A stretch of DNA of 19,182 nt from a virus (taxonomy: Duplodnaviria; Heunggongvirae; Uroviricota; Caudoviricetes). A program made the translations under genes and the position numbers. This document shows, piece after piece, positions 8,708 through 19,182 of the stretch. Position 1 is the first letter of the stretch. Each line of letters opens with the position of its first letter. The stretch lies in IMG/VR virus record IMGVR_UViG_2706794676_000003; one strand, given 5' to 3'. Under the pieces are notes generated by a model. It saw only the letters and a list, made by a program, of their open reading frames with translations. It was not told the DNA's origin and did no database searches.

Positions 8708-9685
8708 GTGAGTTCAGGTGCAAAGGTTATCTCGGCATTTATCCGGGAGACGGTTGCAGGCACTACGCCAGCAAGTGGTGACTGGAGTTTATTAAAACGC
8801 ACAAGCTGGGGAGTAAAACCCACCNNNNNNNNNNNNNNNNNNNNNNNNNNNNNNNNNNNNNNNNNNNNNNNNNNNNNNNNNNNNNNNNNNNNNNNNNNNN
8901 NNNNNNNNNNNNNNNNNNNNNNNNNNNNNNNNNNNNNNNNNNNNNNNNNNNNNNNNNNNNNNNNNNNNNNNNNNNNNNNNNNNNNNNNNNNNNNNNNNNN
9001 NNNNNNNNNNNNNNNNNNNNNNNNNNNNNNNNNNNNNNNNNNNNNNNNNNNNNNNNNNNNNNNNNNNNNNNNNNNNNNNNNAGCGCAGGTTGGCTCATGG
9101 AAAATGCAGATCCCTAACGACGGCGATATTACAGCGACCGTAACCTTTGCCGGACTGGACTGGGAATCAAAGGCCGATGATACGAATTTTATCAAAGGCG
9201 AACCTGTGGATAGTGCAGGAAAGCTACGTTATTCGTTTAAGGAGGTTTCAGCAGTAAGCCTGAATGGTGTTGCCGGAGGTAACGGTTTTTGTATCGACAG
9301 TTTTGATATTCAGTTCGATAACAAACTCCAGACACAGCGTTGTATCGGGACTGGCTCGCCTTATGCAGGAGCAAATATTCCGACTACTTTTACACCGTCC
9401 GGTACGGTGACGCTTTCATGGTCTAAAGCCGCGTGGGAAATCTGGAGTAAAACACTGACTGGAGAAACAGTTCCGTTCAGCTTCACGCTTTCGAATGGAG
9501 AGGGGGCATACACTTTCAGTTTCCCGAAGGTTCAGGTGTCAGGTGAATGGCCTGATGGGGGTAATAGCGACATTATCCAGGTTCAATTGAGCATTACCGC
9601 AGCAGATGAAGCACCTACGATAACCAGAAAAAAAAATTCCCCGGCTGCCGTGATCGCAAAAGCCAGTGCTGAGGCGATTAGTTGA
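8708..9685 (+). CDS. major tail (tube) protein (spans masked block 8825-9081)
   Basis: GTG 8708 with a perfect AGGAGG 6 nt upstream; 325-aa ORF continuous in frame through the N-run; position between the tail terminator and the G/GT chaperone genes. Confidence 0.7.
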   Translation: MSSGAKVISAFIRETVAGTTPASGDWSLLKRTSWGVKPTXXXXXXXXXXXXXXXXXXXXXXXXXXXXXXXXXXXXXXXXXXXXXXXXXXXXXXXXXXXXXXXXXXXXXXXXXXXXXXXXXXXXXXAQVGSWKMQIPNDGDITATVTFAGLDWESKADDTNFIKGEPVDSAGKLRYSFKEVSAVSLNGVAGGNGFCIDSFDIQFDNKLQTQRCIGTGSPYAGANIPTTFTPSGTVTLSWSKAAWEIWSKTLTGETVPFSFTLSNGEGAYTFSFPKVQVSGEWPDGGNSDIIQVQLSITAADEAPTITRKKNSPAAVIAKASAEAIS

Positions 9686-9733: not shown

Positions 9734-10195
9734 ATGAGGTTATGGATGTTTATTCTTAATCAGAAAATTATCATTGGTGGAGAACGCTGGTTTACGCCAA
9801 TGAAGGACTTAAAACCTGTAGACGGGTTAAAACTGTTGGTGGCAAGCAGCGATAACGATCAGTATCGCTCCCGTAATGCATTAATCCGTCGCCACATTGA
9901 GAAAATGGATGCCAGTTTGCACGTCGGAACGAAGGAGTTTGATATTTCAAAGGTTTCCGAGGTGGATTCTGTTGATGATTTACTCATTGATAATGCCGCT
10001 CGTTATCTGCTGAAAGACTGGAAAGGGGTTGGTGAACTGGTTAATGGTGTTGAGGTTGCACTGGAATATACGGCAGAACGAGGGATCGCGCTGCTTAAGC
10101 AGAATCCAGAGTTGTACTGGCAGATCCTTGCAGAAGCAGCCAGCATCGCCCAGGGTAAAGAGCAGCAGAAGCAGGATACGATAAAAAAGCCATAG
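9734..10195 (+). CDS. tail assembly chaperone (lambda G analogue)
   Basis: 153-aa ORF between the major tail and tape measure genes, ending 7 nt after a slippery heptamer; G-run SD at ~9720-9724. ATG 9800 is an alternative start. Confidence 0.7.
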   Translation: MRLWMFILNQKIIIGGERWFTPMKDLKPVDGLKLLVASSDNDQYRSRNALIRRHIEKMDASLHVGTKEFDISKVSEVDSVDDLLIDNAARYLLKDWKGVGELVNGVEVALEYTAERGIALLKQNPELYWQILAEAASIAQGKEQQKQDTIKKP

Positions 10196-10503
10196 CTGCC
10201 CAGCGGTGGTTATCGGAGTTCGGGGGAGAAAGGGGGGAAAAGGCAAGATGGAAGCGAGAAAAACTCAGGTTGCCACCGATACCGGAACCAGAAATAGACC
10301 CGGTGCTTAAGGAGTTGTTGTACGCCTATTCGGTAATATCCCGTGCCCGACGTTATGCTGGAATGGCTGGGGTGCCTTTGCCTTTATCTCTGACAGAGAT
10401 AAATGAATATTTAGCCACTCATCCGGTATTGATTGAGCGCGATGAATTTGAAGCAGTGATCTTTGCACTGGATGACCAGTATTTTCAGGAGCAGTGTGTG
10501 TAG
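9734..10503 (+). CDS. tail assembly chaperone GT fusion made by programmed -1 ribosomal frameshift at 10183-10189
   Basis: The -1 frame is open from 10159 to 10503 and overlaps the end of G; a slip at A_AAA_AAG places ribosomes in that frame (..QDTIKK-AIAAQRWLSEFGGERGEK...LPPIPEPEIDPVLKELL...FQEQCV). The stand-alone T ORF in the track has only a TTG start at 10270. Confidence 0.6.
10183..10189 (+). promoter_or_regulatory. slippery heptanucleotide A_AAA_AAG for -1 frameshifting (G to GT)
   Basis: Heptamer in the X_XXY_YYZ register of the G frame (codons AUA-AAA-AAG), identical in sequence to the E. coli dnaX shift site; located 4 nt before the G stop, as in the conserved G/GT arrangement of lambda-like tails. 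Confidence 0.6.
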
Positions 10504-10623
10504 TTGTTAATTACGTACACTCTGTTACAGAGATGTGATGGTGTCTTTAATTAAATCGATGATGCTCCTGGAGAAAAGCATTGCGTGGCCTCGTAATCGC
10601 TATATCTACTATTATGTCGCCTG

Positions 10624-10648
10624 AAACCCACTTCGCGGTGGGTTTTTT
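10624..10648 (+). terminator. rho-independent terminator-like hairpin immediately upstream of the tape measure gene
   Basis: AAACCCAC (10624-10631) / TTCGCG loop / GTGGGTTT (10638-10645), a perfect 8-bp stem running into a TTTTTT tract (10643-10648); 20 nt upstream of the tape measure start codon. Confidence 0.5.
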
Positions 10649-10668
10649 GTTGTCAGGAGTTTTAATAA

Positions 10669-13600
10669 ATGGCAGAGCAAACCTCGCGTCTCGCAATAAT
10701 TATTGATAGCACTGGAGCGAAAAATAATGCTGACAATCTGACCTCCTCATTAGTCAAAATGACGCAGGCTGGGGAAACTGCTGCAAATAGCGCAGGGAAA
10801 GTGACTAAGGCAACAGAAGATGAGAAGAACGCGCTCGCAAAATTAAAAGCAGCTATTGATCCAGTTGGTGCCGCAATTGATACTGTCGGTCGACGCTATT
10901 CTGAATTAAAGAAATTTTTCGATAAAGGGCTTATTGATAAAGAAGAATATGAATTTCTTGTCCGTAAACTTAATGAAACCACAGAGGAATTGAGCGGGGT
11001 TGCGCAAGCGCAGAGAGAAGCCGAGAAGGCCGGAAAACTTGCTGCCGCCCAGCAGGAAGCGCAGGCTCAGGCCTTTCAAAGAATGCTGGACAAGATCGAC
11101 CCTCTGGCTGCGGCGCTAAGAAATCTTGAACAACAGCATGATGAACTTAATGCTGCGTTTGCATCCGGGAAAATAAATGGTTCTCAGTTTGAGAATTATA
11201 GCCGAAAAATACAGGAAACACGGCGAGAGCTTACCGGAGAGGCTCAGGCAGAGCGAGAAGCAGCAAAAGCGCATGATGAACAGGTTGTTGCTTTGCAACG
11301 TCTGATTGCTCAACTTGATCCTGTCGGAACTGCTTTTAATCGTCTGGTAGAACAACAGAAACAGCTCAATGAAGCAAAAGCTAAGGGGATGCTTTCTCCT
11401 GAAATGTATGAGGAGCTTTCTGGAAAACTTCGTGCTATGCGGAGTGAGCTTGAGGTTACTCAATCACAATTAAGCAAAACCGGAATGTCGGCAAAACAAA
11501 CGGCTTTTGCTATGCGCATGTTGCCTGTACAAATGACGGATATTGTTGTTGGGTTGTCCACTGGTCAGTCGCCATTTATGGTGTTAATGCAGCAGGGCGG
11601 CCAGCTAAAAGATATGTTCGGTGGGATTGGCCCGGCGATCAAAGGTGTAGGTTCTTATGTGCTGGGATTAATTAATCCTTTTACCCTGGCCGCAGCAGCC
11701 GTTGGGGTCTTAGGACTGGCTTACTATAAAGGCTCTCAGGAGCAGGACGAATTTAATAAATCTCTTATTCTTACCGGAAATCAGTTGGGGACAACCAGCG
11801 GGCAATTGGGCGATATAGCTCAACGTGCCGGGAATGCGGCTGATTCGACAACTGGTGCTGCGGCGGCAGTATTAAATCAGCTTGTGCGTTCGGGAAAGGT
11901 AGCGAGCAGTTCGCTGGAGCAAGTGACGACAGCGATAGTAAAAACGAGCGAAGTAACAGGAATATCAACCGAACAACTGGTTAATGACTTCAATGAAATT
12001 GCAAAGGATCCTGTCAGTGCCATATCAAAACTTAATGATCAGTACCATTTTCTGACACTTGCGACTTATAACCAGATTAAGGCGCTACAGGATGAAGGGA
12101 ACCAGCAGGAGGCCGCCCGCATTGCGACAGAAGAATACTCATCCTCAATGATCCAGCGCACCAACCAGATTAAAGAAAATCTTGGTTATCTTGAGACTGC
12201 ATGGAAAGCTGTCGCAGACTCCGCAAAATGGGCATGGGATTCCATGCTGGATATTGGCCGTGAGGCCTCCCTTGATCAAAAAATCTCAGATGTTCTCCGT
12301 CAAATTGATGAAATAGAAAAAAATACCCGACCCGGAGTTTTCGGGTTAGGTGGCATTGGAGATGGCGGAGCTCAAAATAAAAGGCTGGCACGATTAAAGC
12401 AGCAATTGGGCGTACTTCAAGCAGAAAAAATTGCTCAGGACGTACTAAATTCATCAATAAACGATTACAACAAGCGACAACAGGAAGGAATTGAACTCAG
12501 ACAGAGAGCAGATGCCTTTTCAAAACAATATCAGACCCGGGAGCAGCAGAGAGCTAGTGAACTTGCAAAACTGGAAAAGCTAAAGAATCAGTATTCAAAG
12601 GAAGAATATAATAATCTTATCGCTCAAATAAATGAGCGTTATAAAGATCCAAAGCAACCAAAGGCGAAAGGTTATTCTGATGATGCAGCCCAACGAATGA
12701 TTGATCATCTGAATCAACAGAATGCGTTACTAAGTTCACAAGCTGAGTTGACCGTTAAATTAAGTTCCTCTGAACAGGAACTGGTTAAGTGGCGTCAGCG
12801 GATTGCCGACCTAGAGTCACGACCATCATCGAAATTAACCCAGGATCAGAAATCGCTTCTCTTACACCGGGAAGAAATAACCACGTTGATGGAGAAAAAT
12901 GTTGCGATTGAAAAAAATAACAGGCTAATCAAGGAATCCGCCGAAATAACAGCATGGCGTGATTCATTGCAGGCTTCGATTGATAATCGTCAGCAGGGGT
13001 ATGATATTCAGATTGCTGGTTATGGGGTTGGCGATAAAAATCAGCAACGCCAGCAGGAATTACTGCGGATTGAACATGGATATAACAATCAGCGTCTGCA
13101 ACTTGAACGTGACTATGCAGATAAATCCCGTGGAATGTCAGATCATGTTTTTCAAGAGAAAATGCAGGCTCTGAATGATGCTCTGGAACGGGAAAAAGAA
13201 ATTGTCAGACAGAAAAACGAGCAGCTCGATATTCAGGCAGGAGACTGGGTTAGTGGTGCCTCCCAGGGATTCAATAACTGGCTGGATGACACTAAGGATA
13301 TCAGTGAGCAGATAAAATCAACCACGACTCAGATGTTTGATGGGATGACCGATGCGCTGGGTGATTTTGTCACGACAGGCAAGGCAAATTTTCGTTCTTT
13401 CGCTACTTCCGTGATTTCGGATCTTAGTCGAATAGCATTAAAGGCTTCAATTACTGGGATTTTCGACAGCATTAGTAACAGTTCTTCTGGGGGGATTTTA
13501 GGAACTATCGGGAGTGCTATTAGTAAATTTATTCCGAATGCAAAGGGCGGTGTTTATGAGTCTCCGTCATTGAGCACGTATTCGAACGGTATTTATGATT

Positions 13601-13902
13601 CCCCGCAATTTTTTGCTTTTGCAAAAGGGGCTGGTGTTTTTGGTGAGGCTGGACCGGAAGCCATTATGCCATTAACACGAACTTCCGATGGTTCTCTTGG
13701 TGTCAGAGCTATTAATAGTAAAAGTGGTAATGGAGGCGGAGATATTACCTATGCCCCTGTATACCAAATCACTATTCAAAATGACGGCCAGAATGGAGAG
13801 ATTGGCCCTCAGGCAATAAAAGCACTTATGGGGATGGTTGATCAGCGGGTGCAGGGCAATCTGTTAAATATGCGACGTGATGGGGGAATGTTAAGTGGCT
13901 AA
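10669..13902 (+). CDS. tail length tape measure protein (lambda H homologue, 1077 aa)
   Basis: Long ORF with CAGGAG SD; contains a conserved core resembling lambda H ([38 protein letters not shown]) and a lambda H-like C-terminus (..[17 protein letters not shown]...[10 protein letters not shown]); lies between G/GT and M. Confidence 0.9.
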
Positions 13903-14233
13903 TACGGAAGAATTTCACTGGTTACCAGAGGATGGAATGAAAACAGAAAATAAACCATCGATAAAAACTGTAAGATTTGGTGATGGTTATGAGCAACGAA
14001 GTCCAAATGGACTTAATCATTCTCTGCGCGTTTTCACCTGTGATTTCAAAGTTGAGGCGAATGAACGTGATTCATTTGAAAAATTTTTAGCCCGGCATGA
14101 AGGCTATAAATCTTTTTTTTGGCGCCCGCCGGGTATTAACAGAAAAATCAGAGTGGTGTGTCGAACGTGGTCAGCGACAGAACATATCACCTATACCGAT
14201 TTTTCGTGTCAGTTTGACGAAGTGGTGATCTGA
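13895..14233 (+). CDS. M: minor tail protein M (divergent lambda M homologue)
   Basis: Contains the [16 protein letters not shown] motif of lambda M; homology to the lambda M N-terminus (F-x-W...GM) extends upstream of the internal ATG 13937, favouring GTG 13895 with GGGGGA SD 7 nt upstream; stop overlaps the L start (TGATG). Confidence 0.8.
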
Positions 14234-14931
14234 TGCAGGACATACAACAGGAAACGCTGAATGAATGCATTCGTGCGGAGCAGTCGGCCAGCGTGGTGCT
14301 CTGGGAAATCGACCTGACCGAGGTAGGCGGGGATCGCTACTTTTTCTGCAATGAGCAGAACGAGAAAGGAGAGTCTGTCACCTGGCAGAGTCGGCAGTAT
14401 CAGGCCTATCCCATTCAGGGGAGTGGATTTGAGATGAACGGCAAAGGTGCCAGTGCAAGGCCAACGCTGAAAGTCTCTAATCTGCACGGCATGGTCACCG
14501 GGATGGCGGAAGACCTGCAGAGTCTGGTCGGCGGAACGGTGGTCAGGCGTAAGGTTTACGCCCGTTTTCTGGATGCGGTGAACTTCGTCAACGGAAACAG
14601 TGACGCCGATCCGGAGCAGGAGGTGATCAGCCGCTGGCGTATTGAGCAGTGCAGCGAACTGAGCGCGGTCAGTGCCTCCTTTGTACTGTCCACGCCGACG
14701 GAAACGGACGGCGCTGTTTTTCCGGGGCGCATCATGCTTGCTAATACCTGCACCTGGACCTATCGCGGTGATGAGTGCGGTTATCACGGTCCGGCTGTCG
14801 CGGATGAATATGACCAGCNNNNNNNNNNNNNNNNNNNNNNNNNNNNNNNNNNNNNNNNNNNNNNNNNNNNNNNNNNNNNNNNNNNNNNNNNNNNNNNNNN
14901 NNNNNNNNNNNNNNNNNNNNNNNNNNNNNNN
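14233..14931 (+). CDS. L: minor tail protein L (3' end lies inside masked block 14819-15069; end inferred from a 232-aa lambda L)
   Basis: Translation [47 protein letters not shown]... matches lambda gpL almost residue for residue (from memory); the stop codon is hidden in the N-run. Confidence 0.85.
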
Positions 14932-15087
14932 NNNNNNNNNNNNNNNNNNNNNNNNNNNNNNNNNNNNNNNNNNNNNNNNNNNNNNNNNNNNNNNNNNNNN
15001 NNNNNNNNNNNNNNNNNNNNNNNNNNNNNNNNNNNNNNNNNNNNNNNNNNNNNNNNNNNNNNNNNNNNNCCGGAGGAGTATTTCCGG

Positions 15088-15687
15088 ATGGCTCCGGAGG
15101 ACTGGCTGCAGGCAGAGATGCAGGGTGAGATTGTGGCGCTGGTCCACAGCCACCCCGGTGGTCTGCCCTGGCTGAGTGAGGCCGACCGGCGGCTGCAGGT
15201 GCAGAGTGATTTGTCGTGGTGGCTGGTCTGCCGCGGGGCGATTCACAAGTTCCGCTGTGTGCCGCATCTCACCGGGCGGCGCTTTGAGCACGGGGTGACG
15301 GACTGTTACACGCTGTTCCGGGACGCTTACCATCTGGCGGGAATTGAGATGCCAGATTTTCATCGTGAGGACGACTGGTGGCGTAATGGTCAGAATCTCT
15401 ATCTGGATAATCTGGAGGCTACAGGGCTGTATCAGGTGCCGTTGTCAACGGCGCAGCCGGGCGATGTGCTGCTGTGCTGTTTTGGTTCATCGGTGCCGAA
15501 TCATGCCGCCATTTACTGTGGTGACGGCGAGCTGCTGCACCATATTCCTGAACAACTGAGCAAACGAGAGAGGTATACCGACAAATGGCAGCGACGCACA
15601 CACTCCCTCTGGCGTCACCGGGCATGGCACGCATCTGCCTTTACGGGGATTTGCAGCGATTTGGCCGCCGCATCGACCTTCGTGTGA
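15088..15687 (+). CDS. K: tail tip assembly protein K (JAMM/MPN plus NlpC/P60-like)
   Basis: ATG 15088 with GGAGGA SD gives a 199-aa product (MAPEDWLQAEMQGEIVALVHSHPGG...AASTFV), the same length and near-identical sequence as lambda gpK; HSHP motif visible; 3' end overlaps I by 103 nt as in lambda. Confidence 0.85.
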   Translation: MAPEDWLQAEMQGEIVALVHSHPGGLPWLSEADRRLQVQSDLSWWLVCRGAIHKFRCVPHLTGRRFEHGVTDCYTLFRDAYHLAGIEMPDFHREDDWWRNGQNLYLDNLEATGLYQVPLSTAQPGDVLLCCFGSSVPNHAAIYCGDGELLHHIPEQLSKRERYTDKWQRRTHSLWRHRAWHASAFTGICSDLAAASTFV

Positions 15688-16292: not shown

Positions 16293-19182
16293 ATGGGTAA
16301 AGGCAGCAGTAAGGGGCATACCCCGCGCGAAGCGAAGGACAACCTGAAGTCCACGCAGCTGCTGAGTGTGATCGATGCCATCAGTGAAGGGCCGGTTGAA
16401 GGTCCGGTGGATGGATTAAAAAGCGTGCTGCTGAACAGTACGCCGGTGCTGGACAATGAGGGGAATACCAACATCTCCGGCGTCACGGTGGTGTTCCGGG
16501 CAGGTGAGCAGGAGCAGTCACCGCCGGAGGGGTTTGAATCCTCCGGCTCCGAGACGGTGCTGGGTACGGAAGTGAAATATGACACGCCGATCACCCGGAC
16601 CATCACGTCGGCAAACATCGACCGTCTGCGCTTTACCTTCGGTGTACAGGCACTGGTGGAAACCACCTCAAAGGGAGACAGGAATCCGTCGGAAGTCCGC
16701 CTGCTGGTTCAGATACAGCGTAACGGTGGCTGGGTGACGGAAAAAGACATCACCATTAAGGGCAAAACCACCTCGCAGTATCTGGTCTCGGNNNNNNNNN
16801 NNNNNNNNNNNNNNNNNNNNNNNNNNNNNNNNNNNNNNNNNNNNNNNNNNNNNNNNNNNNNNNNNNNNNNNNNNNNNNNNNNNNNNNNNNNNNNNNNNNN
16901 NNNNNNNNNNNNNNNNNNNNNNNNNNNNNNNNNNNNNNNNNNNNNNNNNNNNNNNNNNNNNNNNNNNNNNNNNNNNNNNNNNNNNNNNNNNNNNNNNNNN
17001 NNNNNNNNNNNNNNNNNNNNNNNNNNNNNNNNNNNNNNNNNNNNNNNNNNNNNNNNNNNNATACAGCGGTATCTGGGACGGAACGTTAAAACCAGCATAC
17101 AGCAACAACATGGCCTGGTGTCTGTGGGATATGCTGACCCACCCGCGCTACGGCATGGGGAAACGTCTTGGTGCGGCGGATGTGGACAAATGGGCGCTGT
17201 ATGTCATCGGCCAGTACTGCGACCAGTCAGTGCCGGACGGCTTTGGCGGCACGGAGCCGCGCATCACCTGTAATGCGTACCTGACCACACAGCGCAAGGC
17301 GTGGGATGTGCTCAGTGATTTCTGCTCGGCGATGCGCTGTATGCCGGTATGGAACGGGCAGACGCTGACGTTCGTGCAGGACCGACCGTCGGATAAGGTG
17401 TGGACCTATAACCGCAGTAATGTGGTGATGCCGGATGATGGCGCGCCGTTCCGCTACAGCTTCAGCGCCCTGAAAGACCGCCATAATGCCGTTGAGGTGA
17501 ACTGGATTGACCCGGATAACGGCTGGGAGACGGCGACAGAGCTTGTGGAGGATACGCAGGCCATTGCCCGTTACGGTCGTAACGTCACGAAGATGGATGC
17601 TTTTGGCTGTACCAGCCGGGGGCAGGCACACCGCGCCGGGCTGTGGCTGATTAAAACAGAACTGCTGGAAACGCAGACCGTGGACTTCAGCGTGGGCGCA
17701 GAAGGGCTTCGCCATGTGCCGGGCGATGTCATTGAAATCTGTGATGATGACTATGCGGGTATCAGCATCGGCGGGCGCGTGCTGGCGGTAAACAGCCAGA
17801 CCCGGACGCTGACGCTCGACCGTGAAATCACGCTGCCATCCTCCGGTACCATGCTGATAAGCCTGGTTGACGGAAGTGGCAATCCGGTCAGCGTGGAGGT
17901 TCAGTCCGTCACCGACGGCGTGAAGGTGAAAGTGAGCCGTGTTCCTGACGGCGTTGCTGAATACAGCGTGTGGGGGCTGAAGCTGCCGACGTTGCGCCAG
18001 CGCCTGTTCCGCTGTGNNNNNNNNNNNNNNNNNNNNNNNNNNNNNNNNNNNNNNNNNNNNNNNNNNNNNNNNNNNNNNNNNNNNNNNNNNNNGCTGACAG
18101 TCCGGGCGGTAAATGCCTGGGGACAGCAGGGCGATCCGGCGTCGGTATCGTTCAGGATTGCCGCACCGGTAGCACCGTCGCGGATTGAGCTGACGCCGGG
18201 CTATTTTCAGATAACTGCCACGCCGCATCTTGCGGTTTATGATCCGACGGTACAGTTTGAGTTCTGGTTCTCGGAAACGCGGATTACCGATATCAGGCAG
18301 GTTGAAACCACAGCCCGCTACCTTGGCGCGGGGCTGTACTGGATAGCCGCCAGTATCAATATCAAACCGGGCCATGATTATTACTTTTATATCCGCAGTG
18401 TGAACACCGTTGGCAAATCGGCATTCGTGGAGGCCGTCGGTCGGGCGAGCGATGATGCGGAAGGTTACCTGGATTTTTTCAAAGGCAAGATAACCGAATC
18501 CCATCTCGGTAAAGAGCTGCTGGAAAAAGTTGATCTGACGGAGGATAACGCCAGCAGACTGGATGAGTTTTCGAAAGAGTGGAAGGACGCTAACGATAAA
18601 TGGAATGCGATGTGGGGCGTCAAAATTGAGCAGACCAAAGACGGCAAACATTATGTCGCGGGTATTGGCCTCAGCATGGAGGACACGGAGGAAGGCAAGC
18701 TGAGCCAGTTTCTGGTTGCCGCCAATCGTATCGCGTTTATTGACCCGGCAAACGGGAATGAAACGCCGATGTTTGTGGCGCAGGGCAACCAGATATTCAT
18801 GAACGACGTGTTCCTGAAGCGCCTGACAGCCCCCGCCATTACCAGCGGTGGCAGTCCTCCGGTATTTTCCCTGACATCAGACGGAAAGCTGACCGCTAAA
18901 AATGCGGATATCAGTGGTAGTGTGAATGCGAACTCAGGAACGCTCAACAATGTCACGATTAACCAGAACTGTACGATTAAGGGCATGCTGGAGGCGACCC
19001 AGGTCAGAGGGGATTTCGTTAAAGCTGTATCAAAAGCCTTCCCGAAAAAAGTCGGTACGTGGGGTAACACGGAAACACCAGACGGTACGGTTACAGTCAC
19101 CATCAGCGATGATCATAACTTTGACCGCCAGATTATTATTCCGCCCATTATTTTTAACGGTATAGCGTATGACGATCCGGGG
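16293..19182 (+). CDS. J: tail tip / central tail fibre protein J (host specificity protein), 5' ~960 codons; runs off the window end; interrupted by masked blocks 16792-17060 and 18017-18092
   Basis: Starts [34 protein letters not shown]... as lambda gpJ; after the first N-run the J sequence continues in frame 1 ([44 protein letters not shown]...) and stays open to the end of the window. Not a single entry in the ORF track because no stop codon is present and the frame changes across the first N-run. Confidence 0.9.

What the first reader, a model, noticed from the sequence alone, without database searches (positions are those of the whole stretch)
10834..11478. Tape measure protein carries a triplicated ~72-aa N-terminal module absent from lambda H
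Three diverged tandem repeats (cores [34 protein letters not shown]..., [35 protein letters not shown]..., [35 protein letters not shown]...) precede the conserved MRMLPVQ core, which is at about residue 281 here versus about residue 65 in lambda H (from memory). This accounts for most of the 1077 versus 853 aa length difference. Because tail length scales with tape measure length (about 0.15 nm per residue), this predicts a tail roughly 30 nm longer than lambda's; repeat gain or loss would be a simple way to change tail length.
Basis: partly seen in the sequence, partly recalled or inferred. Interest (0 to 1): 0.5.

Follow-up and report, generated by a model that had tools for sequence, protein, structure and literature searches.

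The report
Three-unit repeat lengthens prophage tape measure
The tail tape-measure protein of this Rac-like E. coli prophage really does carry three old, diverged copies of a ~73-residue helical unit ahead of its lambda-H-like core. Relatives carry 0 to 5 copies, so this is a natural but fairly ordinary way of setting tail length.

Summary
ORF 10669-13902 (1077 aa) is a lambda-H-type tape measure protein (TMP_2, TMP_4 and Tape_meas_lam_C). Residues 53-279 hold three tandem units of ~73 aa, with periods of 80 and 73 aa. Pairwise local alignments between units score z = 12-18 against shuffles. An HMM built only from other phages' units scores the three at 54-69 bits, against a maximum of 11 bits in shuffles. 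MRMLPVQ starts at residue 282 here and MRMLPAQ at residue 69 in lambda H. The N-terminal excess is therefore 213 of the 224-aa length difference.

The triplication is old. There is no repeat at the DNA level, and units are positionally orthologous with Klebsiella phage TMPs. The allele, whose N-terminus is K-12 ynaA, occurs in 1071 of 5426 complete E. coli genomes, almost always at full length.

Relatives with the same core carry 0 (lambda), 1, 2, 3, 4 or 5 units. Two Klebsiella phage TMPs that are about 90% identical over 838 aa differ by exactly 153 aa, which is two units. The unit matches 628 cluster representatives and no Pfam family covers it.

The ~30-35 nm longer tail is inferred from published ring counts for lambda and T1. 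It has not been measured. This is a new member of a known kind, of modest interest.

The parts
10669..13902 (+). Tape measure protein gene, 1077 aa
   Evidence: ORF. Pfam TMP_2 272 bits, TMP_4 84.7 bits, Tape_meas_lam_C 91.4 bits. phrog_24 'tail length tape measure protein'. Collinear with lambda H.
10669..10824 (+). N-terminal cap, aa 1-52 ([17 protein letters not shown]...)
   Evidence: Conserved in the aligned relatives that carry units; several invariant columns. Not detectably similar to lambda H 1-56. AlphaFold pLDDT below 50.
10825..11043 (+). Repeat unit 1, aa 53-125
   Evidence: HMM 53.7 bits from an independent profile. 79% identical to unit 1 of Klebsiella phage ST405-OXA48phi1.3. 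Sub-threshold SHOCT match at aa 79-101.
11044..11064 (+). 7-aa linker (AAQQEAQ) after unit 1. It makes the first period 80 aa.
   Evidence: Unit boundaries.
11065..11283 (+). Repeat unit 2, aa 133-205
   Evidence: HMM 69.4 bits. 79% identical to unit 2 of the Klebsiella phage. The extra unit in 4-copy relatives is of this type.
11284..11505 (+). Repeat unit 3, aa 206-279. Its tail (TGMSAKQTA) overlaps the start of the TMP_2 core.
   Evidence: HMM 67.5 bits. 61% identical to unit 3 of the Klebsiella phage.
11467..12081 (+). TMP_2 core, aa 267-471, beginning with MRMLPVQ at aa 282
   Evidence: Pfam PF06791, E 3.9e-81. Aligns with lambda H from residue 57.
12679..12912 (+). TMP_4 domain, aa 671-748
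   Evidence: Pfam PF24622, E 4.8e-24.
13240..13464 (+). Lambda-type C-terminal tape measure domain, aa 858-932
   Evidence: Pfam PF09718, E 3.9e-26.
9734..10503 (+). Tail assembly chaperone pair (G-like ORF 9734-10195; -1 frame open to 10503). Slippery site A_AAA_AAG at 10183-10189.
   Evidence: Sequence read directly. The T part has a weak Phage_TAC_18 match. Same gene order as lambda G/T/H.
13895..14233 (+). gpM-like minor tail protein immediately downstream
   Evidence: Pfam Phage_min_tail, E 1.2e-31.

Best explanation
The gene encodes the tail tape measure (ruler) of a Rac-like lambdoid prophage of E. coli. Its lambda-H-like core (TMP_2, TMP_4, lambda-type C-terminal domain) is preceded by a 52-residue cap and three old, diverged copies of a ~73-residue, mostly alpha-helical unit. 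The unit consensus is ..AL..L...IDPv.aAl..L..qq..L..a...G.i...e.d.ys.kl.etr.eLtG.aqAereA.kA, with D-P and one G invariant.

In lambda-type tails the C-terminus of the ruler is anchored in the tip and the tube polymerises along it until the N-terminal end is reached. This is established knowledge for lambda and was not tested here. On that model the units lengthen the head-proximal end of the ruler.

Published ring counts give ~0.15-0.156 nm of tube per TMP residue: lambda has 853 aa and 31 discs spanning 132.7 nm; T1 has 957 aa and ~34 rings of 4.2 nm. At that ratio the 1077-aa protein predicts a tube of about 161-168 nm, or 38-39 rings. That is roughly 30-35 nm, about 7-8 rings, longer than lambda's.

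Shown: the repeat, its boundaries, its age, its absence from the lambda H N-terminus, and unit number varying from 0 to 5 on the same core.
Inferred: that the units lie extended in the tube lumen and count fully towards tail length.
For: - Repeat statistics.
- Domain architecture.
- Collinearity with lambda H and the 213-aa N-terminal offset.
- Tail-gene context (G/GT frameshift site, gpM, L, K, I, J).
- Units per TMP: window 3, Klebsiella phage ST405phi1.3 3, Klebsiella phage 5 LV-2017 3, Gungnir39 2, HK639 2, Klebsiella phages ST11phi8.2 and ST846phi9.2 1 each, lambda H 0. P0009, P0020 and P0062 have 4, with one extra unit-2-type unit inserted exactly between units 1 and 2. P0068 has 5.
- ST405phi1.3 (1037 aa) and ST846phi9.2 (884 aa) match at 89.6% over 838 ungapped residues. 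They differ by 153 aa, which is unit 1 + linker + unit 2.
- Among 86 full-length TMP_2-core proteins, the core start rises with unit count (r = 0.63). Median total length rises 853, 997, 1078, 1088, 1128, 1279 aa for 0-5 units.
- AlphaFold predicts the region as almost entirely helical.
- Ring counts come from PMC12617516 (lambda) and PMC11945409 (T1).
Against: - No tail-length measurement exists for any phage carrying this TMP.
- Invariant D-P and G, and predicted 4-5-residue turns at the G, suggest a defined fold rather than a featureless helical spacer. If the short helix packs back on the long one, each unit adds much less than 11 nm.
- The AlphaFold model has low global confidence (mean pLDDT 65, pTM 0.32). 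It cannot decide between an extended and a folded unit.
- Total length correlates only moderately with unit count (r = 0.50). The sample is biased, because it consists of the best 150 hits of the unit profile itself.
- The central region of these TMPs also varies in length.
- It is unknown whether this prophage makes particles.
Confidence: 0.7

Rival explanations
1. Each unit is a folded module: a helix-turn-helix hairpin resembling SHOCT. It would serve mainly as an oligomerisation site, or as a repeated docking site for the G/GT tail assembly chaperone. It would contribute to length only by its folded size. A ~21-residue helix packed back on a ~50-residue helix advances about 4 nm, roughly one tube ring. 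Three units would then add about 13 nm, not about 34 nm.
For: - D12, P13 and G35 are invariant across 30 diverse units. A plain spacer would not need that.
- AlphaFold places a 4-5-residue turn at each invariant G, between a ~21-residue and a ~46-53-residue helix.
- There are sub-threshold SHOCT, SHOCT_2 and DUF1707 matches centred on the G.
- Chaperone molecules are known to coat lambda gpH along its length (Xu, Hendrix and Duda 2014, cited from memory and from reference lists; the paper was not held).
Against: - SHOCT matches never reach the Pfam threshold for a single unit (21.2 against 27 bits). Only 5 of 30 units match at E <= 0.1.
- The structure search found nothing significant (best E 0.24).
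- The whole-protein ratio of ~0.15 nm per residue holds for T1, whose TMP gives a weak one-unit match (E 0.006).
- No interaction data exist.
Confidence: 0.2
2. The units matter after assembly rather than for length. Lambda gpH* leaves the tail and forms the channel across the cell envelope. The extra N-terminal helical units could lengthen or adapt that channel, with the tail-length change as a by-product.
For: PMC12617516 reports that hexameric gpH* forms at least a major part of the periplasmic channel. It tentatively places the N-terminal segment (residues 1-319) at the outer membrane. The units lie directly upstream of the conserved hydrophobic segment of the TMP_2 core.
Against: Nothing in the sequence ties the units to membranes; they are hydrophilic and charged. 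Unit number varies between phages of the same host genus (Klebsiella phages with 1 and 3 units), and these hosts have similar envelopes. This idea does not exclude the ruler role.
Confidence: 0.07
3. The similarity between the three segments is a by-product of coiled-coil-like, low-complexity composition. It is not true duplication.
For: The region is rich in A, Q, E and K, and individual units give many weak hits to unrelated helical Pfam families.
Against: Composition-preserving shuffles never approach the observed scores. Alignments are in register and essentially ungapped, with invariant D-P and G at fixed spacing. Relatives differ by whole units at exact unit boundaries.
Confidence: 0.01

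Closest known systems
Bacteriophage lambda gpH (tail length tape measure protein; Pfam TMP_2 + TMP_4 + Tape_meas_lam_C)
   Same: Same three Pfam domains in the same order. Collinear alignment over window 270-1077 and lambda 57-850 (28% identity, E 2e-76). Same gene neighbourhood, with G/GT upstream and M, L, K, I, J downstream.
   Different: Lambda H has 68 residues ahead of MRMLPAQ and no unit there. This protein has 281 residues: a 52-aa cap plus three units. The caps are not detectably related. Lambda has only a weak unit-like stretch in its centre, at residues ~404-456.
E. coli K-12 ynaA (Rac prophage pseudogene)
   Same: 99.8% DNA identity over the first 900 nt. RefSeq annotates it as 'phage tail length tape measure family protein, incomplete, missing C-terminus'. 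It holds the cap and all three units.
   Different: K-12 keeps only the first 311 codons. The window has the intact 1077-codon gene of an undegraded Rac-like prophage. The same gene is 99.8% identical in GenBank record ON032529, which is flanked by trkG and sitABCD/uspF/ompN.
TMPs of Klebsiella phages ST405-OXA48phi1.3, ST846-OXA48phi9.2 and ST11-VIM1phi8.2, Klebsiella phage 5 LV-2017, Escherichia phage HK639 and Erwinia phage Gungnir39
   Same: Same cap, same unit and the same TMP_2-type core. Units are positionally orthologous: unit 1 to unit 1 at 79%, unit 2 to unit 2 at 79%, unit 3 to unit 3 at 61% with ST405phi1.3.
   Different: Unit number is 1, 2 or 3. The downstream tail-tip genes differ (DUF1833-type rather than lambda M/L/K/I/J).
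Tandem-repeat tape measures described by Belcaid, Bergeron and Poisson 2011 (PMC3271669), and the lambda and TP901-1 deletion and duplication experiments
   Same: Same principle. TMP length, and hence tail length, changes by gain and loss of internal repeat units (Katsura 1987 and Pedersen 2000 as cited).
   Different: Those units are 11 aa long and recent enough to be seen in the DNA. Here the unit is ~73 aa, lies N-terminal to the core, is diverged to 29-37% identity within the protein, and is invisible at the DNA level.
SHOCT / DUF1707 (Pfam PF09851, PF08044)
   Same: The centre of the unit (L..a...G.I..eEyd....kL) resembles the SHOCT motif. Multi-unit relatives sum to above-threshold scores: P0075 SHOCT 41.9 bits, P0062 DUF1707 27.8 bits.
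   Different: Single units do not reach the threshold. Only unit-1-type copies match (5 of 30 units). SHOCT is typically a short C-terminal domain, not an internal array.

Membership tests
Lambda-H-type tape measure protein (Pfam TMP_2 family) | TMP_2 domain (PF06791) above the gathering score | tested here: met
   272.1 bits against a cut-off of 30.2; aa 267-471 cover profile positions 2-208 of 208.
Lambda-H-type tape measure protein (Pfam TMP_2 family) | Lambda-type C-terminal domain (PF09718) and TMP_4 (PF24622) in the lambda order | tested here: met
   91.4 bits (cut-off 23) at aa 858-932, and 84.7 bits (cut-off 27) at aa 671-748.
Lambda-H-type tape measure protein (Pfam TMP_2 family) | End-to-end collinear similarity with lambda gpH | tested here: met
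   BLASTP: window 270-1077 against lambda H 57-850, 28% identity, E 2e-76.
Lambda-H-type tape measure protein (Pfam TMP_2 family) | Gene lies between a frameshifting tail assembly chaperone pair and the tail-tip genes | tested here: met
   A_AAA_AAG at 10183-10189, with the -1 frame open to 10503. gpM, L, K (NlpC/P60), I and J domains lie downstream.
Lambda-H-type tape measure protein (Pfam TMP_2 family) | Protein length sets tail length | not testable with these tools
   This needs electron microscopy of particles or engineered length variants. No published measurement was found.
Internal tandem repeat (true duplication) | Copies significantly similar beyond composition, in register, at unit boundaries | tested here: met
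   z = 11.6-18.1. An independent HMM gives 54-69 bits against a shuffle maximum of 11.4. Relatives differ by exact units.
SHOCT domain (PF09851) | Score at or above the Pfam gathering threshold (27 bits) | tested here: not met
   Unit 1 alone scores 21.2 bits (E 2.3e-4). Only 5 of 30 units match at E <= 0.1. This is a resemblance only.
11-aa-unit tandem-repeat tape measures (Belcaid et al. 2011) | Variable number of an 11-aa repeat, also visible in the DNA | tested here: not met
   Tandem Repeats Finder reports nothing inside the gene. The longest direct DNA repeats are 12-24 nt at 75-92% identity. The period here is 73-80 aa.

The most novel reading that the evidence does not exclude
The ~73-aa unit with invariant D-P and G is a discrete, portable building block of tape measures that has no Pfam family. 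It matches 628 cluster representatives. It occurs mostly N-terminal to TMP_2 cores, and also as a 10-unit C-terminal array in a TMP with a PhageMin_Tail core. It may set tail length in quanta, or provide repeated docking sites for the tail assembly chaperone. The natural 0-5-unit series on one conserved core would then be a ready-made test. It would show whether the lambda-type ruler counts residues (about 11 nm per unit) or folded modules (about 4 nm, one tube ring, per unit).
Probability: 0.2. Interest if true: 0.5.

Novelty: new member of a known kind. Interest (0 to 1): 0.3.

Why it matters
Tape measure length is the textbook determinant of phage tail length, and internal repeats are a known source of its variation. 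This case adds no new principle.

What it does offer is practical. It defines a unit that Pfam does not cover and fixes its boundaries. It shows that the unit is present in about a fifth of complete E. coli genomes, and as the ynaA remnant in K-12. It also shows that close relatives form a natural series of 0-5 units on one conserved lambda-type core.

That series could be moved into lambda or a Rac-like phage. It would let one measure how much tube one unit buys, and whether the head-proximal part of the ruler is extended or folded. Current cryo-EM maps of lambda and T1 leave that part of the TMP unresolved.

Tried and rejected
1. DNA-level repeat. Tandem Repeats Finder and the repeat finder found nothing beyond chance inside 10669-11568. 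Recent duplication or slippage is rejected.
2. Copy-number polymorphism among near-identical E. coli alleles. 1063 of 1071 genomes keep at least 80% of the 900-nt query in one place. The few partial hits seen are truncations or IS insertions (H59 with IS1, H98 half-length). I did not inspect all eight partial records.
3. A conserved N-terminal cap shared with lambda H. No similarity was found (z = -0.4), so 'insertion into lambda H' is not the right description.
4. SHOCT membership. The matches are below threshold.
5. Fold comparison of the AlphaFold model with the PDB. The best E-value was 0.24, with generic helical matches only. The model (pLDDT 65, pTM 0.32) cannot settle the three-dimensional arrangement.
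6. Profile search of solved structures. Only the T1 TMP (9l9p_B) matched, weakly (E 0.006). Only residues 921-956 of that chain were modelled, so no structure of a unit exists.
7. Published tail lengths for phages with this unit (HK639, Gungnir39, vB_EcoS-*, SPF_0923). None was found.
8. Xu, Hendrix and Duda 2014, on chaperone binding to gpH, was not held.
9. An apparent L-K fusion ORF (14233-15687) and a broken J gene. Both are artefacts of runs of N in the window.
Full report
**What is there**

The finding lies in ORF 10669-13902 (+), which encodes 1077 aa. Pfam places TMP_2 at aa 267-471 (272 bits), TMP_4 at aa 671-748 and the lambda-type C-terminal tape-measure domain at aa 858-932. Nothing above threshold covers aa 1-266. 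PHROGs agrees on 'tail length tape measure protein'.

Upstream lies a G-like chaperone ORF (9734-10195). It has a canonical A_AAA_AAG -1 slippery site at 10183-10189, and the -1 frame stays open to 10503. Downstream are gpM-, L-, K-, I- and J-like genes.

The gene is 99.8% identical to one in GenBank record ON032529. There the prophage is flanked by trkG on one side and by sitABCD, uspF and ompN on the other. Its first 900 nt are 99.8% identical to the K-12 Rac pseudogene ynaA. RefSeq annotates ynaA as a tape measure that lacks its C-terminus. The window is therefore an undegraded Rac-like prophage of E. coli.

**Checking the observation**

The I/LDP motifs are at residues 63, 143 and 216, and MRMLPVQ at residue 282. 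I place the units at aa 53-125, 133-205 and 206-279, which is nt 10825-11505. The periods are 80 and 73 aa.

- Pairwise local alignments are essentially ungapped over 54-67 residues, with z-scores of 18.1, 11.6 and 15.1 against 2000 shuffles each.
- As an independent test I built an HMM from units of five other phages, leaving out the window and its closest relative. It finds exactly three units in the window at 54-69 bits.
- The best of 500 shuffles scores 11.4 bits, and lambda H scores nothing.
- An alignment of 30 diverse units has D12, P13 and G35 invariant.

**Comparison with lambda H**

Lambda H, taken from NC_001416, is 853 aa with MRMLPAQ at residue 69. BLASTP aligns window 270-1077 with lambda 57-850 (28% identity, E 2e-76). 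The N-terminal offset is 213 residues out of a total difference of 224.

Two corrections apply:
- The first 52 residues of this protein are not detectably similar to the first 56 of lambda H (z = -0.4). The N-terminus is replaced; nothing was simply inserted.
- Lambda H has a weak unit-like stretch in its centre, at residues ~404-456.

**Age and mode of change**

No repeat is visible in the DNA. Units within the protein are 29-37% identical. Each unit is much closer to the unit at the same position in Klebsiella phage ST405-OXA48phi1.3: 79%, 79% and 61%. The triplication therefore predates the split of these phages.

The allele occurs in 1071 of 5426 complete E. coli genomes. In 1063 of them, one place covers at least 80% of the 900-nt query. 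I see no copy-number polymorphism among close alleles.

**Copy number in relatives**

With the unit HMM, phage TMPs carry the following numbers of units:

| TMP | Units |
|---|---|
| Window | 3 |
| Klebsiella phage ST405phi1.3 | 3 |
| Klebsiella phage 5 LV-2017 | 3 |
| HK639 | 2 |
| Erwinia phage Gungnir39 | 2 |
| Klebsiella phage ST11phi8.2 | 1 |
| Klebsiella phage ST846phi9.2 | 1 |
| Lambda H | 0 |

- Gungnir39's two units match units 1 and 3 of phage 5 LV-2017 (47% and 57%). The middle unit is what differs.
- P0009, P0020 and the full-length P0062 (1195 aa) have four units. One extra unit of the unit-2 type is inserted exactly between units 1 and 2.
- P0068 has five units.
- The clearest case is a Klebsiella pair. 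ST405phi1.3 (1037 aa) and ST846phi9.2 (884 aa) are 89.6% identical over 838 ungapped residues. They differ by 153 aa, which is exactly unit 1 + linker + unit 2.

An exhaustive profile search of 1.84 billion representatives found 628 proteins at E <= 0.001. Those I checked are tape measures. Most have the TMP_2, TMP_4 and lambda-C architecture with N-terminal arrays. One has a PhageMin_Tail core and ten units in its C-terminal half.

Among 86 full-length TMP_2-core proteins, the core start correlates with unit count (r = 0.63). Median length rises from 853 to 1279 aa over 0-5 units. The sample is biased towards unit-bearing proteins, and some long N-termini probably hide degenerate units.

**Structure**

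AlphaFold2 on aa 1-300, with a 27-sequence alignment, gives mean pLDDT 65 and pTM 0.32. The cap is disordered and the units are almost wholly helical. Each unit reads as a ~21-residue helix from the D-P, a 4-5-residue turn at the invariant G, then a 46-53-residue helix running into the next D-P.

The three-dimensional arrangement is not reliable, and Foldseek against the PDB finds nothing significant. Unit 1 gives a sub-threshold SHOCT match (21.2 against 27 bits). Only 5 of 30 units match at E <= 0.1. I treat this as a resemblance, not as family membership.

The only solved chain that matches the unit profile is the T1 tape measure (9l9p_B, 957 aa, residues 67-136, E 0.006). Only residues 921-956 of that chain were modelled.

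**How it most likely works**

In lambda the ruler's C-terminus sits in the tip, and the tube grows along it to the N-terminal end. This is established knowledge for lambda (Katsura 1987, as cited) and was not tested here.

Published counts are as follows:
- Lambda has 31 discs spanning 132.7 nm for 853 aa, which is 0.156 nm per residue (PMC12617516).
- T1 has ~34 rings of ~4.2 nm for 957 aa, which is 0.149 nm per residue (PMC11945409; length).

At these ratios 1077 aa predicts a tube of 161-168 nm, or 38-39 rings. This step is inference.

The main rival is that each unit folds as a hairpin. It would then add only about one ring, and might act as a chaperone docking or oligomerisation site. The invariant D-P and G and the predicted turn keep that open. 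Ring counting on a unit-number series would decide between the two.

**Novelty and verdict**

Tape measures that vary in length through internal repeats are well known (PMC3271669; PMC13585406). This protein is already annotated as a tape measure in hundreds of genomes.

What appears undescribed is this particular ~73-aa unit, its boundaries, and the 0-5-unit series on a lambda-type core. Pfam has no family for it, and no paper in the searched library links SHOCT-like units to tape measures.

I rate it a new member of a known kind, of modest interest.

Noticed in passing
window 2799-3064, 8825-9081, 14819-15069, 16792-17060, 18017-18092: There are five runs of N (masked sequence). They create a false 484-aa 'L+K fusion' ORF (14233-15687) and an apparent frame break in the J gene near 17271. 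The minus-strand ORFs 17227-18651 and 18651-19103 have no family match, lie antisense to J, and are probably spurious.
   Followed up: yes
window 10183-10189: A canonical -1 slippery heptamer A_AAA_AAG lies four bases before the stop of the G-like chaperone ORF (9734-10195). The -1 frame stays open to 10503, giving a lambda-style G/GT pair. The 11-nt tandem repeat GGGGGAGAAAG at 10222-10243 lies in the T-frame part just downstream.
   Followed up: partly
window 10504-10668 (hairpin 10623-10646): A 165-nt non-coding gap separates the GT stop from the tape measure start. It holds a terminator-like hairpin plus a T-run 22 nt before the ATG. In lambda, T and H overlap. HK639 also has annotated terminators between tail genes. 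This may attenuate tape measure expression; it was not tested.
   Followed up: no
L009 3001-3933 (E. coli BW25113, ynaA): The K-12 Rac pseudogene ynaA is the first 311 codons of this tape measure: the cap, all three units and the first ~30 residues after MRMLPVQ. It is followed by Lom fragments and an IS5-like element.
   Followed up: partly
L008 4001-6898 against L004 4001-6655: Klebsiella phages ST11-VIM1phi8.2 (965 aa) and ST846-OXA48phi9.2 (884 aa) both have a single, 99% identical unit, yet differ by 81 aa. Their N-terminal ~480 residues are only 51% identical and their C-terminal ~520 residues 89% identical. There is therefore a second mosaic junction and a second length-variable stretch inside the TMP_2 and central region.
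   Followed up: partly
P0067 (1786 aa) residues 724-1604; P0078 (3481 aa): The same unit occurs as a ten-copy array in the C-terminal half of a tape measure with a PhageMin_Tail (PF10145) core. P0078 was reported with 24 partial matches, none of which passed my stricter filter. The unit is not tied to the TMP_2 core or to the N-terminus.
   Followed up: partly
L001 (lambda H) residues ~404-456; PDB 9l9p_B (T1 gp38) residues 67-136: There are weak single-unit matches in the centre of lambda H (AYERLQTPLEKYTARQEELNKALKDGKILQADYNTL...; iE 0.002-0.02) and near the N-terminus of the T1 tape measure (E 0.006). These may be degenerate copies of the same unit.
   Followed up: partly
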